This document shows positions 21,001 through 39,000 of a DNA stretch of 64,000 nucleotides, in pieces. Position numbers: made by a program. The stretch comes from Sphyrna mokarran. Its lineage: Eukaryota. How positions within the stretch are numbered: the first letter of the stretch is position 1; every line of letters starts with the position of its first letter. Location: the NCBI GenBank assembly GCA_024679065.1, contig JAGIQG010000031.1:17670001-17734000 (forward strand), given 5' to 3'.

Positions 21001-24000
21001 TCACAGATGGACAGAATGATGAAGAAGATATTCAGCAAACTTGGTTTCATCAGTCAACATTGAACACAAGAGTTGGAATGTCTTGTTGAAGTTGTACATG
21101 ACATTGGTATGGTCATACTTGAAATACTGTGTGCAATTCTGGTCACCCTATGATAGAAGGATATTATTAAACTAGAAAGAGTGCAGAAAAGATTTACTAC
21201 GGTGCTACCAGGACTTGACGGATTGAGTTGTAAGGAGAGGCTGGATAGACTGGGACTTTCTTCTCTGCAGTGTAGGAGGCTGAGAGGTGATCTTATAAAG
21301 GTTATAAAGTAATGAGGAGCCTAGATCAGCTGGATAGTCAACATATTTTCCCAAAGGTAGAGGAGTCTAAAACTAGAGGGCATAGGTTTAATGTGAGAGA
21401 GGAGAGATAGAAAAGTGTCCAGAGCAGCAATTTTTTCACACACAGGGTAGTGAGTGTCTGGAACAAGCTGTCAGAGGAAGTAGTAGAAGCGAGTACAATT
21501 TTGTCTTTTAAAAAGCAGTTAGATAGTTACATGGGTACACTGGGTACTGAGGGATATGGGCCAAATATGGACAATTGTGAATAGCTTAGGGCAGCATGAC
21601 AAGTTGGGCCAAAGGGAATGTTTCCATGCTGTAAACCTCTGTGACTCTAAGTGAAATGTGCTAACTGTTAACCAAGTTTTGGAATTTAAAAAATTAAGTT
21701 AGAGAGATATGTGACTTTCTGGGCTCATCCCAGGCAAAAACAAACTGCTTTGCCTATTTCCACTCCAAGTGAGATATGTGATGGTGCAATAATTCTGAGC
21801 ACATGTAAAACTGTTCAAGACTCTACAATGGTCTATGGCTAGAAACTGTGTCCAGTGGTGAATTACCAGAAATCACCAAGTTTTTAAAGTTTGATATGGG
21901 GCTGATTGGAATTTCCATGATGTGTGGATCACTTCTGAAGCATGGATCTTAAGAGTGAAATGCAAAGAAGTTTTCTATATTGCTGGGGATTATGACCTGA
22001 AACTTGTCCTAATTTTGTCATGTGAAGCCATCAGCTCACAGGCTTGATAAATGTAAATGCTTTCTATGGTCAGAATGTATTTATATACAAAGTCTAAGTT
22101 TTGACTTTTGTGGAGTAACTGGTATAGTTTGTCATGATGTGTGCTTTTTTATTTCATCCTTTGCCATTTCATCTCAGCAGAGAATTCCATTTTGTTCATT
22201 GCAAAAATACATTTTGAGAATGTCAAAAGGCGAGTAATGAATTTTGACTGACTGTCGTGTGCCATTTGTCTAAATTGTACTTCTTTATCTGCCTGAAGTC
22301 ATGACCAGGTTGGAGATTGGTTCTGTTTGCTATCGCTGTGATCACTCAGTGGTAGATCACCATTTTCTGTGACAACAGGCAGACAAACTGTTTCTTTCCA
22401 ATTTTTCTTCCAAATTCCCTTGTCCAAAACAAAAACAAATGTTGTTTCTGCTTTTCTAAGCTGCTCTGTCCAGTGGATCAGCAGAAAATGAGAAAAATGG
22501 AGGCATATGTGGCACTTATAAAATTCAGTGCGAGACTCTCATCCCGGGGGGTAGGAGAGATCGTAGACATGGACCTGTAATGTAAAATTGTGAAATTTTT
22601 CAATTATGAATTGAGAAATTTCTTCTTTTAATGGAATATTCAATAATTCTGCCTTTTATGTGCACATCTCCACTTCAGACCTTTTGAAGAAAAATGTTTG
22701 AATAAGCCAAACTAGATTTTGAGCCTTGTGGAAAGATTATGTCCCGTCATTATTTTTGCCCTCTCACCTTGTGGTGTTTTTCATCATTCATTCTGTTTAC
22801 TGTGTAACATGCTCTGTGTGTTTGTTTCCATCGTCCTTTGCATGCTGCCTCCAGCCAAGGGCGCTGAGAGCAGTGCTGTAAGGAACCAGTCAGGTGCTGG
22901 GCCTCAGGCCGAGGTGCTCCAGTCTGCTCACCCTCCGCCTCCTGTACTCTGTAAGTTGTCTGGGCATGCTGTGTTCTGCATATCACGTGACTGCCTGTGT
23001 GTGTTAACCAAGTTGTAGAAAGTGGCCATTCATAAAAACAAAACTGAAAATATCTCTCAATATATAGTTAATTTGTTGTTTTTCTGTTAATCTCCTTAAC
23101 TGATAATATTTTAAAAAAACGGAATAACATTCTGAGGTCAAGCCACTAATTTGTTCCAAAAATCTGATTTTTTTTTATTGTTTATCCTGTTCTCTATCAC
23201 ACTAGTGAAACTTGAATTATTCTTAAAATTAAAAGTGACTGAATTTTCCATATAAAAATTAGCTAAATTTGTTAATTAGAGATGACAGAAATACAAAAAC
23301 CTATCTGAACTATTGAAACAATAGTGGAAAAGAAAACTAGCTTCTGCAGATTTGATTGCCCAGAGATGATCAGATTGATCGAGCATCATACAGTTAGGTA
23401 GTTAGCCAGGAACATAGTTAGTACTTCAGAAGAAGTTAACATCTATTGTGTTCACACAATGGCATGAAGTAATCTTACTGCTTTGAACTTTCTCACAAAA
23501 GAAATTAACTAGTGTGCTGGATATCAGGTTAAGTAAATTACAAATGATGCTAAAACAATGCCTATAAATCTAACGATTCATTGCATTTTTGTAATTTCAG
23601 CTACATCTGAGAAACTTTAAGTCCCACATGTAAAAACATATCAGTAACATGACACATAAGATGGCAAAATTGAGGTGACATGACAAAAAAGGTCAAAGAC
23701 ATTCAAAGAAAAGACACAGAAACCAAAATAATTTTTTAGTGCTTGCATCTTTTTCTTAGTCATTAGCAATTAAGATATCAACTAAGCAGAAGAAAGGAGA
23801 GGAAAACTTATGCTGCCCAGTTTCCATTCTAATATACCAAATTTATGCACAACATCATCCAATTTTAAATTCCTTTAGTTGTGGAATTAACTATTTTGAA
23901 ACTGAAGTAATTTATCTCTCGTGTTTTGAATTACATTAATTCAGCAACAAAATTTGGATTTTTTTTTAAGTTTTACAGATCTAATGATGTAGCTGTGGCC

Positions 24001-36000: not shown

Positions 36001-39000
36001 TCTGATATTCTGTGTCTCTTTCACATTTTATATAATTTTTTCCACAAACTCAGTTGCTAAAGGTTTGGACCGTATAAGTGTTAAGAGTCAGACCAATGAC
36101 TCCAAGAGACCCCTCAGCTCACCACCTCCAACTCAATGTAAGTGTTACATATATTGGTTCCCAACTCTGTCTGAAAAATGGCTTTGGCTTGCCATTTAAA
36201 TTATAATGTAATAGTACTTTATTATTATGGTGCAACATGGGAAATGATTTACCCTACAACTAAGATGAAAACTTACACAGCCAAATAGTTGCCAAGAGAT
36301 GGCCAAAAACAGCACTCCTGAACTAACATTTTAAACATGTTTCTCCAATGAAGAATGAATTTGAGCTGGAATAGAAAAGCAGGGAATATACCCTTATGCA
36401 CAACTCTACTAAAGATCATACACTGAAGTGGCCAAGTGTCCAATTATCAAAACCAAATGGAATGGGATTAAGAAGTAAAAGATAAGGGAAAGAGAATTAG
36501 GGTTCTGTAGATTGTGATTAAAGTTAAGGATGGCATTGAACAATTCATATTAGAAAATAACTGCTGCAACTGCAGCCTTTTCCCAACAGATGTTTTTTGA
36601 GACCGAGAAAAAAAATTGTTTACATCAGCACTATTTATTTTGATTATATAAGCTAATATGCACTTTCAACTTACATAACTTTTATCTGAACATCACAAAA
36701 ATCATAAAAGTTGTGCCTAATTTAGGCACTAGTTTTGTAAAGTGTTTCCCAATTGAAAATAAATGGAGAAGGAATATTTTCACAGGGTTACACCTTGAAA
36801 GAGGGCAGCATGGTGACATGGTGGTTAGCACTGCTACCTCACAGCACTAGGTTCAGGGTTCGATTCCTGACCTAGGTTACTGTTTATGCAGAGTCTACAC
36901 ATTCTCCCCATGTCTGTGCGGGCTTCCTCCGGGCACTCTTGTTTCCTCCAACAGTCCAAAAGTGTTGATTAGGTGCACCGACTACACTAAATTCTCCCTC
37001 AGTGCTCCTGAACAGGCGATAGAGTGTGGCGACTAGAAGATTTTGACTGTAACTGAAACACTTCTTCCAATGGTGCCTAAATAACTAATTACGCACTTTT
37101 CCTACTGGCATTATGAACGACTGGCACTTAAGAACTGAGTCAGCACTGTTCTGATGTGAAATCGAGTGAAAAATTATCTTATAGATACCAAAGGACTGGT
37201 CTAGTAGTGACTTATTATGAACGATGACCATGATTTGCCTTCCTGGTCACAGCTCAAGATGCACAAATCTGGTATGTCAATGATCTGGCTTTAAAAAAGA
37301 ATTTATAATCCCATCTACTGATTCTATTACCCCAAGTACATTTCCAACTCTGAAACTGACCGTTTTCCTTCATTCTCAAAATTGTGACTGGAATTTGACG
37401 AACAGCATAAAAGTAATTTTGCTGGTGTTTAACTGCAATATTTTTGAATTTTTATTCTTCTTTTTCTCCAAGCAAGACCTTCTTTATATGACATCAAAAA
37501 TGGGAGTACTTTGTCACAGGTTTTAAATATGCTGTAGCTTGTGTTTGAATGATAACTGAATGAGTTGGAAATATAATTTTCAAACTTAAAGGCTACATGG
37601 TGCAAGTATGGTAGATTCCATTAGCCCTCATTGTTAATTTGCATCCATTTATACTTCTGGGTTCATTCTAATTAGACTATCAGGGAATTCCAGCATGTCT
37701 CATCTTGTGGCATACACCAGGTTTCTTGATAATAATGACCGAACAACAGAAACAACAAATACATGTTTGATGGTTATTACTTTAACTTCCATAAAATCAG
37801 GTGCATTCTTCCACTTGTTTTTAATGTTAGACTGACAAAGTCAAAACTAAAGGTCTCAAGCTGACTGCTAAGTCTGCACAGAGAATCATTCTAAATTTCC
37901 AGTTCATGACTTTGAGGTGGTGGTTTAATCTTCCCAATAGCTAGATAACATCTCCACTGAATAACAAGCAGAAGACCACTTGCAAGCAATCTATGTGGCT
38001 GAGGCAGTAAACATCTTTAATAACAAATTTGCATTCTGTTTAGATCTGCACATCTAGGAGCATCTGTGAAGCGGGAAACAGAGCTGATGTTTCAAGTTAA
38101 CCAGAACTGGGGGGAGGAAGAAATGTGATGGATTTTATGGCATTGAGTGCGGGAGGGGGCAGGAAGAACTAAAGGGAAGGTCTAGGATATAATAGTGGGC
38201 TGGAGAGATTAAATGAAGAAGTTGTCATTGGAAATAAAAGCAAAGAAAGTAGTAATGAAGAAACAAGGTATCTCTCCATAGCTGCAACTTGCCAATTTAA
38301 AATGAAACACTTACCTAGGATCTTGCATTATGCTCTCCAGCTATGTCCCTGTCTTTGTGGTTACATTTCATGTAATATCGCATGTCTCCAATTTTTAAAA
38401 TCTCTTACATGGTATTGTGCCTTTCATTTTTTTTTTGGCGGCACAGTGACACAGTGGTTAGCACAGTGCCAGGGACCCAGGTTCAATTCTGGCCTATTTA
38501 CTGTCTGTGTAGAGTTTACATATTCTCCCTGTGTCTGCATGGATTCCCTCTGAGTGTTCCAGTTTCCTCCCACAGTCTAAAGATGTGCAGGTTAGGTTGA
38601 CTGGCCATGCTAAATTGGCCTTTAGTGTCAAAGGGATTAGTAGAGTAAAGGTGTGGGGTGGGATTGTGATTGGTGTAGACTTGATGGGCCGAATGATCTG
38701 CTTCCACACTAGAAGTGCTATGAAATCTTAGCAGTTCCAATTAAATGGAGGGGAATCACTCCAGATGATAATTTGTATTTGAGGAGTCAATAATCATTCT
38801 TGCTTTCAGTACAAAACTTTCATAAGTTTTGTACCTAATTTCTCACAAGTAGCAGAGTTATTACAAACGTGGCATAAGTAACCTTTCCTCATCACCAACA
38901 TCACAGTTTCTAGAGACAGGATGTACTCTTTCTATTCTCAATTTATTCTTTGATGAGCAGGTAATAATTATTTTAATCTGTCTGGCTGATAAACTCCTCC

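What the first reader, a model, noticed from the sequence alone, without database searches (positions are those of the whole stretch)
22855..36137. Four-exon proline-rich linker array with A-B-B'-A' architecture
Seen: four symmetric phase-1 exons (96, 126, 114, 84 nt), all with gtaagt donors, all starting near AK and ending proline-rich. The inner pair share AKFTDVL.SVRRGS; the outer pair share AKG and a V-[RK]-x-Q-[ST] segment (AKGAESSAVRNQS vs AKGLDRISVKSQT). Known: mammalian betaM carries three SVRRGSG repeats, and linker length tunes CaMKII holoenzyme activation. Inference: a different repeat set giving up to 16 frame-preserving combinations and up to 140 extra residues, including two divergent exon types with no mammalian match I recognise.
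Basis: partly seen in the sequence, partly recalled or inferred. Interest (0 to 1): 0.7.

Follow-up and report, generated by a model that had tools for sequence, protein, structure and literature searches.

The report
Shark CaMKII-beta linker cassette exons
These are real, conserved, optional mini-exons in the flexible linker of a shark CaMKII-beta kinase gene; they are already in public shark and ray gene models, so the finding is sound but mostly ordinary.

Summary
The window holds the linker and hub part of an elasmobranch CAMK2B gene.

They are not new to databases. All 120 listed hits to exon A are NCBI-named CaMKII isoforms from 12 shark and ray species, and 87 of the 120 carry A-B-B'-A' in that order.

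B and B' are clear duplicates (hhalign 98.8%). They carry the D-[IV]-L-x-SVRRGSG core of human CAMK2B exons 19-21.

The mirror pairing A~A' is not supported. Smith-Waterman (SW) shuffles give 182/3000 and hhalign 2.3%. A looks more like B (39/3000; 34.6%).

The array is also larger than four. A 36-nt exon Y (45106-45141) is annotated in four sharks. A 75-nt hydrophobic candidate exon X (28927-29001) is annotated only in Mobula.

Most likely role: modular disordered phospho/docking inserts, as in mammalian betaM/beta3. A Ca2+/CaM-sensitivity tuner is less likely, since human beta EC50 barely changes over linkers of 0-217 residues.

Presence outside elasmobranchs, and expression, could not be tested.

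The parts
2300..2332 (+). Upstream linker exon (exon 15 / v3N type), KRKSSSSVQLM. Context only.
   Evidence: tblastn of annotated shark isoforms against the window. Boundaries cag|...|gtgagg. Cook et al. already reported v3N in fish and shark beta (PMC5882894).
6194..6262 (+). Linker exon (exon 16 type), PQTNSTKNNVVTSPKGNIPCPAL. Context only.
   Evidence: 23/23 identity to P0047. Boundaries cag|...|gtattg.
9276..9320 (+). Linker exon (exon 17 type), EPQTTVIHNPVDGIK. Context only.
11551..11599 (+). Linker exon (exon 18 type), ESSDSSNTTIEDEDVK. It ends in phase 1 with G and is the upstream splice partner of the array.
22855..22950 (+). Cassette exon A, 96 nt, phase 1-1: (A)KGAESSAVRNQSGAGPQAEVLQSAHPPPPVL.
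   Evidence: Splice sites. Identity is 31/31 to annotated isoforms of 7 species and 28-30/31 in 5 more. Mean pairwise identity is 94.9% across 11 species. GCATG lies at -15 and +14.
28927..29001 (+). Candidate cassette exon X, 75 nt, phase 1-1, hydrophobic: TLSLSVCYFISLFNLWENKTLKYI.
   Evidence: Pyrimidine tract plus AG, and donor gtaaat. 19/24 identical to a segment annotated only in Mobula isoforms P0111 and P0112. A search with X plus flanks found nothing at E<=10. GRAVY is +0.61.
29248..29373 (+). Cassette exon B, 126 nt, phase 1-1, betaM/v7 type: AKFTDVLSSVRRGSGPFPEHEGPQTPATQPQMPPIIPSSMP.
   Evidence: 38/41 to Mustelus asterias isoforms. RRGS is present in 10 of 10 distinct orthologue sequences. 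GCATG lies at +31, +38 and +53.
31833..31946 (+). Cassette exon B', 114 nt, phase 1-1, a duplicate of B: AKFTDVLKSVRRGSAPFAEAEGGQSVQTPPLIPFSTP.
   Evidence: B~B' gives hhalign 98.8% and 0/3000 shuffles. DNA is 72% identical over 156 nt. RRGS is present in 8 of 10 distinct orthologue sequences.
36054..36137 (+). Cassette exon A', 84 nt, phase 1-1: AKGLDRISVKSQTNDSKRPLSSPPPTQ.
   Evidence: 18-26/27 identity in annotated isoforms. Mean pairwise identity is 86.3% across 11 species.
45106..45141 (+). Cassette exon Y, 36 nt, phase 1-1: (Y)GWPTSVFLQVR(A).
   Evidence: gcag|...|gtaagt. The same 11 residues follow exon A in annotated isoforms P0019-P0021 and P0056.
45606..45681 (+). First hub exon (exon 22 type), (A)[25 protein letters not shown]. 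It is the downstream splice partner of the array.
   Evidence: Pfam CaMKII_AD positions 1-25, E 2.1e-6.
47474..47568 (+). Second hub exon.
   Evidence: Pfam CaMKII_AD positions 26-56, E 3.7e-11..
48521..48753 (+). Last coding exon of the hub, ending ...[13 protein letters not shown] and a stop codon.
   Evidence: Pfam CaMKII_AD positions 58-128, E 1e-31..

Best explanation
The window carries the 3' half of an elasmobranch CAMK2B (CaMKII beta subunit) gene. Between the last common linker exon (...EDEDVK) and the first hub exon (RKQEII...) lies a cluster of optional cassette exons. The order is A, (X), B, B', A', Y. All are phase 1-1 and a multiple of three bases long, so the spliceosome can include any subset without breaking the frame.

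B and B' are an old tandem duplicate and the counterparts of mammalian CAMK2B exons 19-21 (v7a-c, the betaM/beta3 proline-rich repeats). A is probably a strongly diverged member of the same exon family. A', Y and X have no detectable relative inside the array.

Shown here: the positions, splice signals, phases and open frames; protein-level conservation across sharks and rays; and inclusion in public gene models in several combinations.

Inferred: each of A, B, B' and A' adds 27-41 residues of proline/serine/glutamine-rich, probably disordered chain just before the hub. Each carries a V-[RK]-x-x-[ST] site (RRGS in B and B') that suits basophilic kinases, followed by a proline-rich tail that could dock partners. 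By analogy with mammalian betaM/beta3, inclusion is probably tissue-specific (muscle and pancreas rather than brain). The clustered GCATG motifs next to A, B and B' are the recalled core of the RBFOX binding motif and suggest one way this could be controlled. The inserts more likely change targeting, partner binding and phospho-regulation than Ca2+/calmodulin sensitivity.
For: Gene identity:
- Pfam CaMKII_AD matches the three downstream exons, and P0047 has Pkinase plus CaMKII_AD with nothing on the array.
- All 120 listed hits to exon A are NCBI- or UniRef-named CaMKII isoforms of 12 elasmobranch species.

Exon anatomy.

Combinations. Among the 120 A-containing proteins:
- ABB'A': 87
- ABB': 7
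- AB'A': 2
- AB: 2
- AA': 1
- A+Y: 4
- A alone: 17

Conservation over 11 species, as mean pairwise identity:
- A 94.9%, B 82.0%, B' 84.2%, A' 86.3%
- common linker exons 93.2%, hub 98.6%

Relationships within the array:
- B~B': hhalign 98.8% and 0/3000 shuffles. DNA similarity is limited to the exon plus about 22 nt upstream, which points to an old duplication.
- A~B: hhalign P 4e-4 and 39/3000 shuffles.

Link to mammals:
- The human exon 19-21 sequences printed in 10.1101/721589 share the D-[IV]-L-x-SVRRGSG core.
- Cook et al. say two of the three are used in pancreatic beta3 and all three in muscle betaM.

Motifs: V-[RK]-x-x-[ST] occurs in all four exons, and RRGS in 10/10 distinct B and 8/10 distinct B' sequences.

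GCATG: 8 sites lie within 200 nt of the six cassette exons, against a mean of 3.3 for random placements; 128 of 5000 random placements reach 8.

Function: human beta EC50 is 14-31 nM for linkers of 0-217 residues.
Against: - No transcript data were available, so inclusion rests on computed NCBI gene models. Such models can borrow evidence between species, so 12 species are not 12 independent proofs of expression.
- Disorder is inferred from composition only. Both structure predictions were too poor to use (mean pLDDT 32.4 and 30.9).
- The A~B relation is weak (hhalign probability 34.6%). A' has no significant relative at all.
- The GCATG enrichment is modest (about 0.026), was looked for after the fact, and is absent at A', X and Y.
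- The phosphosite and docking roles are untested.
- X is annotated in one species only and may be a conserved intron element rather than an exon.
- The EC50 result is for the human protein, not shark.
Confidence: 0.85

Rival explanations
1. One reading: the array is a mirrored set A-B-B'-A', in which the outer exons are a related pair just as the inner ones are. This would be a distinct repeat architecture of exactly four exons.
For: A and A' both read AKG at their start and both have V-[RK]-x-Q-[ST] about eight residues in. Both end proline-rich.
Against: - A~A' is not above chance: 182/3000 shuffles reach its score, and hhalign gives 2.3%, P 0.02, over 12 columns.
- A is closer to B and B' (39/3000 and 35/3000; 34.6% and 11.9%).
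- There is no DNA similarity between the A and A' regions, each taken with 600 nt of flank.
- The AKG is out of register. In A the Ala is the junction codon, while in A' it is the second full codon, after a TT-completed junction codon.
- V-[RK]-x-x-[ST] also occurs in B and B', so it does not single out the outer pair.
- Exons all on one strand cannot become A-B-B'-A' by a single tandem duplication.
- Y and X lie in the same interval.
Confidence: 0.08
2. A and A' (and Y) are not functional coding exons. On this view they are prediction artefacts or rarely used cryptic exons that automated annotation copied from species to species.
For: All evidence of inclusion comes from computed 'isoform X' models. 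No paper among those listed describes them, and a text search for their peptide motifs found nothing relevant. Pfam, PDB and Atlas searches show no relatives.
Against: - A is 31/31 identical in 7 species and at least 28/31 in all 12. That makes it as conserved as the common linker exons (94.9% against 93.2%).
- A' is 86.3% conserved.
- Frame, phase, AG and gtaagt are intact in the window, which is not identical to any annotated species.
- Y is 11/11 identical.
- Seventeen of the 120 listed proteins use A alone, in otherwise ordinary isoforms.
Confidence: 0.05
3. The array works mainly as a length dial. Adding up to 140 residues (177 with X and Y) between the regulatory segment and the hub would tune Ca2+/calmodulin sensitivity of the holoenzyme.
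For: Linker length changes EC50 in CaMKII alpha: 24 nM against 313 nM for 30- and 0-residue linkers (10.1101/721589, section 7). The start of the abstract of PMC12474881, seen in the search listing, links Ca2+ sensitivity to linker length.
Against: In the same study, human beta variants with linkers from 0 to 217 residues all fell within 14-31 nM. The 217-residue variant includes the proline-rich exons. Sequence, not just length, is conserved: A has 24/31 invariant columns, and RRGS is invariant in B. That argues for sequence-specific roles.
Confidence: 0.12

Closest known systems
Mammalian CAMK2B exons 19-21 (v7a-c), the proline-rich tandem repeats of the betaM (skeletal muscle) and beta3 (pancreatic beta-cell) variants
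   Same: - They occupy the same slot, between exon 18 and the first hub exon.
- They are phase-1 cassettes with lengths in multiples of three. By my count of the letters printed, the human exons are 114, 129 and 129 nt; B' is 114 nt.
- They share the core D-[IV]-L-x-SVRRGSG followed by a proline-rich tail.
- They are tandem duplicates used in varying numbers.
   Different: - The shark has two copies, not three.
- Its copies are much more diverged from each other: 72% DNA identity over 156 nt, against 'nearly identical' in human.
- They sit among other exon types (A, A', Y and perhaps X) that the papers I saw do not list for mammals.
Public NCBI gene models of CAMK2B in sharks and rays (for example Cetorhinus X1 P0047, Scyliorhinus torazame X15 P0055, Mustelus asterias X10 P0090, Mobula hypostoma X3 P0112)
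   Same: The exons, their order and their junction residues are the same. 87 of the 120 listed proteins carry A-B-B'-A'.
   Different: The window matches none of them exactly. The best match is Mustelus asterias, with A 30/31, B 38/41, B' 35/37 and A' 26/27. X is modelled only in Mobula.
CAMK2G exon 19
   Same: It occupies the same slot before the hub. The authors of 10.1101/721589 describe it as homologous to beta exons 19-21.
   Different: It is a single exon without the SVRRGSG core.
alphaKAP, the membrane-anchored non-kinase product of CAMK2A. This is a lead for exon X only.
   Same: It has a hydrophobic stretch attached to a CaMKII hub. alphaKAP targets CaMKII to the sarcoplasmic reticulum (Cook et al. 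discussion passage).
   Different: The alphaKAP anchor is N-terminal and arises from an alternative promoter. X is an internal 24-residue cassette with only about 15 hydrophobic residues. No sequence comparison was made.

Membership tests
CAMK2B (CaMKII beta subunit) orthologue | C-terminal CaMKII association (hub) domain | tested here: met
   Pfam CaMKII_AD matches the three downstream exons, searched one by one: E 2.1e-6, 3.7e-11 and 1e-31, covering profile positions 1-25, 26-56 and 58-128.
CAMK2B (CaMKII beta subunit) orthologue | Closest named relatives are CaMKII beta | tested here: met
   All 120 listed hits are CaMKII type II isoforms of elasmobranchs. Most are named beta, while some isoforms on the same contigs are named delta or gamma. 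The hub exon is 97% identical to them.
CAMK2B (CaMKII beta subunit) orthologue | N-terminal kinase and regulatory segments | not testable with these tools
   These exons lie upstream of the window. The most 5' exon mapped is the exon 15 type at 2300-2332.
betaM / v7 (exon 19-21) type proline-rich cassette | Lies between exon 18 (...EDEDxK) and the first hub exon (RKQEII...) | tested here: met
   A, X, B, B', A' and Y all lie between 11599 and 45606.
betaM / v7 (exon 19-21) type proline-rich cassette | Symmetric phase 1, with length a multiple of three | tested here: met
   Lengths are 96, 75, 126, 114, 84 and 36 nt, and all six are phase 1-1.
betaM / v7 (exon 19-21) type proline-rich cassette | Core D-[IV]-L-x-S-V-R-R-G-S-G near the start | tested here: met
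   Met for B (DVLSSVRRGSG). Nearly met for B' (DVLKSVRRGSA). The comparison with the human exons printed was made by eye.
betaM / v7 (exon 19-21) type proline-rich cassette | The same core, or significant similarity to B-type, in exons A and A' | tested here: not met
   For A, hhalign to B gives 34.6%, P 4e-4, and 39/3000 shuffles reach its score, so A is suggestive only. For A', hhalign gives 0.1% to B and 0.2% to B', and 2819/3000 and 1158/3000 shuffles reach its scores. Y and X show no similarity.
betaM / v7 (exon 19-21) type proline-rich cassette | Included in skeletal muscle and pancreas, left out in brain | not testable with these tools
   No transcript data were available. The mammalian pattern comes from passages of PMC5882894, 10.1101/721589 and PMC9772828.

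The most novel reading that the evidence does not exclude
A, A' and Y (and perhaps X) could be old jawed-vertebrate CAMK2B linker exons that cartilaginous fishes kept and tetrapods lost. On this reading each of A, B, B' and A' is a diverged copy of one ancestral 'basophilic phosphosite plus proline tail' cassette. The hydrophobic cassette X would give some beta isoforms a built-in membrane or hydrophobic tether that does not depend on alphaKAP. The shark locus would then show the ancestral, richer state of a module known in mammals only as three near-identical repeats.
Probability: 0.15. Interest if true: 0.5.

Novelty: new variant of a known kind. Interest (0 to 1): 0.3.

Why it matters
CaMKII linker splicing is an active topic, but the proline-rich beta exons have no settled function in mammals. 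The shark locus shows that this slot before the hub can hold at least four unrelated-looking exon types. Exon A is as conserved as the constitutive linker, which argues for sequence-specific roles rather than mere spacing.

That gives simple comparative tests:
- Which exons exist in chimaera, gar, coelacanth and frog?
- Which tissues use them?

It does not change what is known about how CaMKII works. The exons are already in public gene models, so the gain is descriptive.

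Tried and rejected
I resent it with 5 flanking intron codons on each side.
- X plus flanks against longer proteins gave 3 candidates, none at E<=10. Even the Mobula proteins that carry the segment were not recovered, so this says little.
- the array region of P0047 (residues 429-570) against proteins shorter than 386 aa gave 306 candidates, none at E<=10. This was an attempt to get past the crowd of shark isoforms and reach fragments from other vertebrates. It failed.
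- a profile of 11 full-length elasmobranch isoforms was run against the 50%-identity representatives.
  - Most CaMKII hits break at profile position about 409 and resume at about 545, so they have no alignable array.
  - P0123 (to 464), P0128 (to 470) and P0125 (to 432) extend into the array, and P0270 starts at 521.
  - Spread of A and A' outside elasmobranchs therefore stays unchecked.
- (Atlas): no usable hit.
- (PDB): nothing for B or A'. For A there was one weak hit at E 0.15 to SENP2, which I take to be chance.
- (Pfam): no family on A, B, B', A' or X.
- (AlphaFold2 on P0047 and P0112): mean pLDDT was 32.4 and 30.9, and even the kinase domain was poor. They were not used as evidence of disorder. 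The helices drawn over X in the Mobula model have pLDDT below 50.
- a weak tblastn match at 37311-37376 (E 0.73) lacks the RRGS core, so I rejected it as a third B-type copy. One search found no third copy at DNA level.
- Bayer et al. 1998 (PMC1170888) is not held. I saw only its title, in reference lists.
- Pfam on 7 long ORFs of suspected retroelements gave no meaningful family.

Full report
**What the window is.** The 64-kb window has no N and is 38% G+C. tblastn with annotated shark and ray proteins maps a run of + strand exons:
- 2300-2332 (KRKSSSSVQLM)
- 6194-6262
- 9276-9320
- 11551-11599 (ESSDSSNTTIEDEDVK)
- 45606-45681 ([25 protein letters not shown])
- 47474-47568
- 48521-48753 (ending ...[13 protein letters not shown] and a stop codon)

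The last three, searched one exon at a time, match Pfam CaMKII_AD positions 1-25, 26-56 and 58-128. The window is therefore the linker-and-hub half of a CaMKII gene. Its nearest named relatives are elasmobranch 'CaMKII subunit beta' models. It is not human. The best all-round match is Mustelus asterias (A 30/31, B 38/41, B' 35/37, A' 26/27), but no listed species matches exactly.

**Checking the observation.**
- A: 22855-22950 (96 nt)
- B: 29248-29373 (126 nt)
- B': 31833-31946 (114 nt)
- A': 36054-36137 (84 nt)

Each has a pyrimidine tract plus AG, a gtaagt donor and phase 1-1. The upstream exon ends with one base (G) and the downstream exon begins with two (CT), so skipping or including any subset keeps the frame.

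This is more than chance. Of 19 GTAAGT sites on the + strand, eight give an open AG..GTAAGT phase-1 candidate of 30-200 nt. Five of those eight are A, B, B', A' and a further exon Y. The - strand gives two candidates.

**Already annotated.**
- Exon A alone was too short for the big protein search. With five intron codons on each side it gave 144 hits at E<=1 among 157 candidates.
- All 120 listed hits are CaMKII isoforms from 12 shark and ray species. The 24 unlisted hits were not seen.
- Dissecting what lies between EDEDxK and RKQEI in those 120 proteins gives 21 distinct inserts: ABB'A' 87, ABB' 7, AB'A' 2, AB 2, AA' 1, A+Y 4, A alone 17.
- The full four-exon set occurs in 11 species.
- The list holds only A-containing proteins, so isoforms without A were not sampled.

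**Conservation.** Mean pairwise identity across 11 species, from alignment A1:

| Segment | Mean pairwise identity |
|---|---|
| A | 94.9% (24/31 columns invariant) |
| B | 82.0% |
| B' | 84.2% |
| A' | 86.3% |
| Common linker exons | 93.2% |
| Hub | 98.6% |

A is 31/31 identical to the window in seven species. This conservation, together with intact frames and splice sites in a species that none of the models came from, is the main argument that A and A' are real coding exons. Inclusion in transcripts itself rests on computed models, and I could not see any RNA data.

**Relationships among the exons.**
- B and B' are clear duplicates. No shuffle of 3000 reaches their SW score, and hhalign gives 98.8%, P 8.6e-17.
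- At DNA level the B/B' match covers only the exon plus about 22 nt of upstream intron, 72% over 156 nt. That fits an old duplication shared by sharks and rays.
- A and A' do not pair: 182/3000 shuffles reach their score, and hhalign gives 2.3%.
- A is nearer to B (39/3000; 34.6%, P 4e-4) and to B' (35/3000; 11.9%).
- A' has no significant relative.
- The shared 'AKG' is out of register. In A the Ala is the junction codon; in A' it is a full codon after the junction.
- All four exons carry V-[RK]-x-x-[ST] about 8-14 residues in, so that motif is general rather than special to the outer pair.
- I conclude that the mirror architecture is not supported. The simplest history is one B-type duplication among other exons, with A possibly a much older diverged copy.

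**More exons than four.**
- Exon Y (45106-45141, 36 nt, gcag|...|gtaagt, phase 1-1) encodes GWPTSVFLQVR. The same 11 residues follow A in annotated isoforms of four sharks.
- Candidate exon X (28927-29001, 75 nt, good pyrimidine tract plus AG, donor gtaaat, phase 1-1, open frame) is 19/24 identical to a segment annotated only in Mobula.
- X is hydrophobic (GRAVY +0.61), unlike the rest of the array.
- A search with X found nothing. X could be a conserved intron element.
- With Y and X there are six cassettes and up to 64 frame-preserving combinations.

**Comparison with what is known.**
- Cook et al. 2018 (PMC5882894, passages) say the beta gene has three unique exons, v7a-c. Two are used in pancreatic beta3 and all three in muscle betaM.
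- Sloutsky et al. [quoted passage not shown] They were not detected in hippocampus.
- Franz et al. [quoted passage not shown] - The human exon sequences printed, read by eye only, share D-[IV]-L-x-SVRRGSG with B. By my count they are 114, 129 and 129 nt.
- Between human exons 18 and 22 that preprint lists only exons 19-21, so A, A', Y and X have no documented mammalian counterpart in what I read.
- ThorAxe (PMC8327911, passages) treats the CAMK2B linker in 10 species, reaching back to amphibians but not sharks.
- Four topic searches listed no paper on shark CaMKII linker exons. A search for the peptide motifs returned one unrelated paper.

**Likely mechanism.**
- The cassettes are rich in Pro, Ser, Thr, Gln, Gly and Ala (56-65% of residues), have no Pfam or PDB relative, and sit just before the hub.
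- I infer disordered inserts. Each would offer a site with a basic residue at -3 (RRGS in B in 10/10 distinct sequences and in B' in 8/10), followed by a proline-rich tail.
- Their use would be tissue-specific, as in mammals.
- GCATG is the core of the RBFOX motif (recalled, not from a call). It is clustered beside A (-15, +14), B (+31, +38, +53) and B' (-38, +75, +86). That is 8 sites against a mean of 3.3 for random placements, with 128/5000 reaching 8. This is suggestive only.
It does not hold for human beta, where EC50 stayed at 14-31 nM for linkers of 0-217 residues.

**What stayed unchecked.**
- The spliced model was searched exon by exon. I made no joined translation of the window's exons and searched none.
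They were located inside the hits by local comparison.
- The representatives search shows a few unnamed CaMKII records whose alignment enters the array.

**Verdict.** This is a correct reading of real exons, but the pairing claim fails. The exon set is larger than described, and the array is already present in public elasmobranch gene models. It is a richer variant of the known betaM/v7 cassette cluster. Interest is modest.

Noticed in passing
window 28927-29001 (+): A 75-nt open, phase 1-1 candidate exon X with good splice signals encodes a hydrophobic peptide. It is 19/24 identical to a segment annotated only in Mobula hypostoma CAMK2B isoforms (P0111, P0112). It could be a real cassette or a conserved intron element.
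   Followed up: partly
It is identical to a segment in annotated isoforms of four shark species, where it follows exon A.
   Followed up: yes
window 28452-28467 and 28986-29001: The last 16 nt of candidate exon X have a perfect inverted copy about 520 nt upstream (blastn E 8e-4 within the window). In pre-mRNA the pair could mask the X donor site. The sequence is AT-rich and was seen after the fact.
   Followed up: no
window 2300-2332 (+): The NLS-type exon (exon 15 / v3N, KRKSSSSVQLM) is present in this beta gene. Mammalian beta lacks it. Cook et al. 2018 already reported it for bony fish and sharks.
   Followed up: yes
related proteins P0048, P0057, P0065, P0091 (Stegostoma, Hemiscyllium, Chiloscyllium): In these four species (Stegostoma, Hemiscyllium, two Chiloscyllium) exon B' reads KCVPRQS where other species have KSVRRGS. 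The second RRGS site is therefore lost in them, while B keeps it in all species.
   Followed up: partly
window 36063 (+); protein P0048: The Stegostoma models start A' three codons later and so lack AKG. The window has a matching AG that gives a 75-nt version of A' (36063-36137). This may be an alternative acceptor.
   Followed up: no
window 22840-22964, 29404-29431, 31795-32037 (+): GCATG motifs are clustered beside exons A, B and B' but not beside A', X or Y.
   Followed up: partly
window 38330-38620 and six further sites (43627-43814 -, 11991-12088, 10066-10216, 36857-36993, 58535-58619, 4752-4826 -): A dispersed repeat family of about 80-290 nt at 71-80% identity, which looks SINE-like. 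One copy lies about 720 nt downstream of exon A'.
   Followed up: partly
window 59638-61611 (+), 50397-51335 (+), 13238-13579 (-): Long ORFs sharing peptide stretches such as ...RFTRLIP.M...ERL.RL.LYSLEFRR.RGDLIE... look like retroelement remnants. Pfam gave no meaningful match for the 7 ORFs tested.
   Followed up: partly
window about 47143-47430: A TG/CA dinucleotide run shows up as HTHTHT and VCVCVC in the ORF translations. It lies just upstream of the second hub exon.
   Followed up: no
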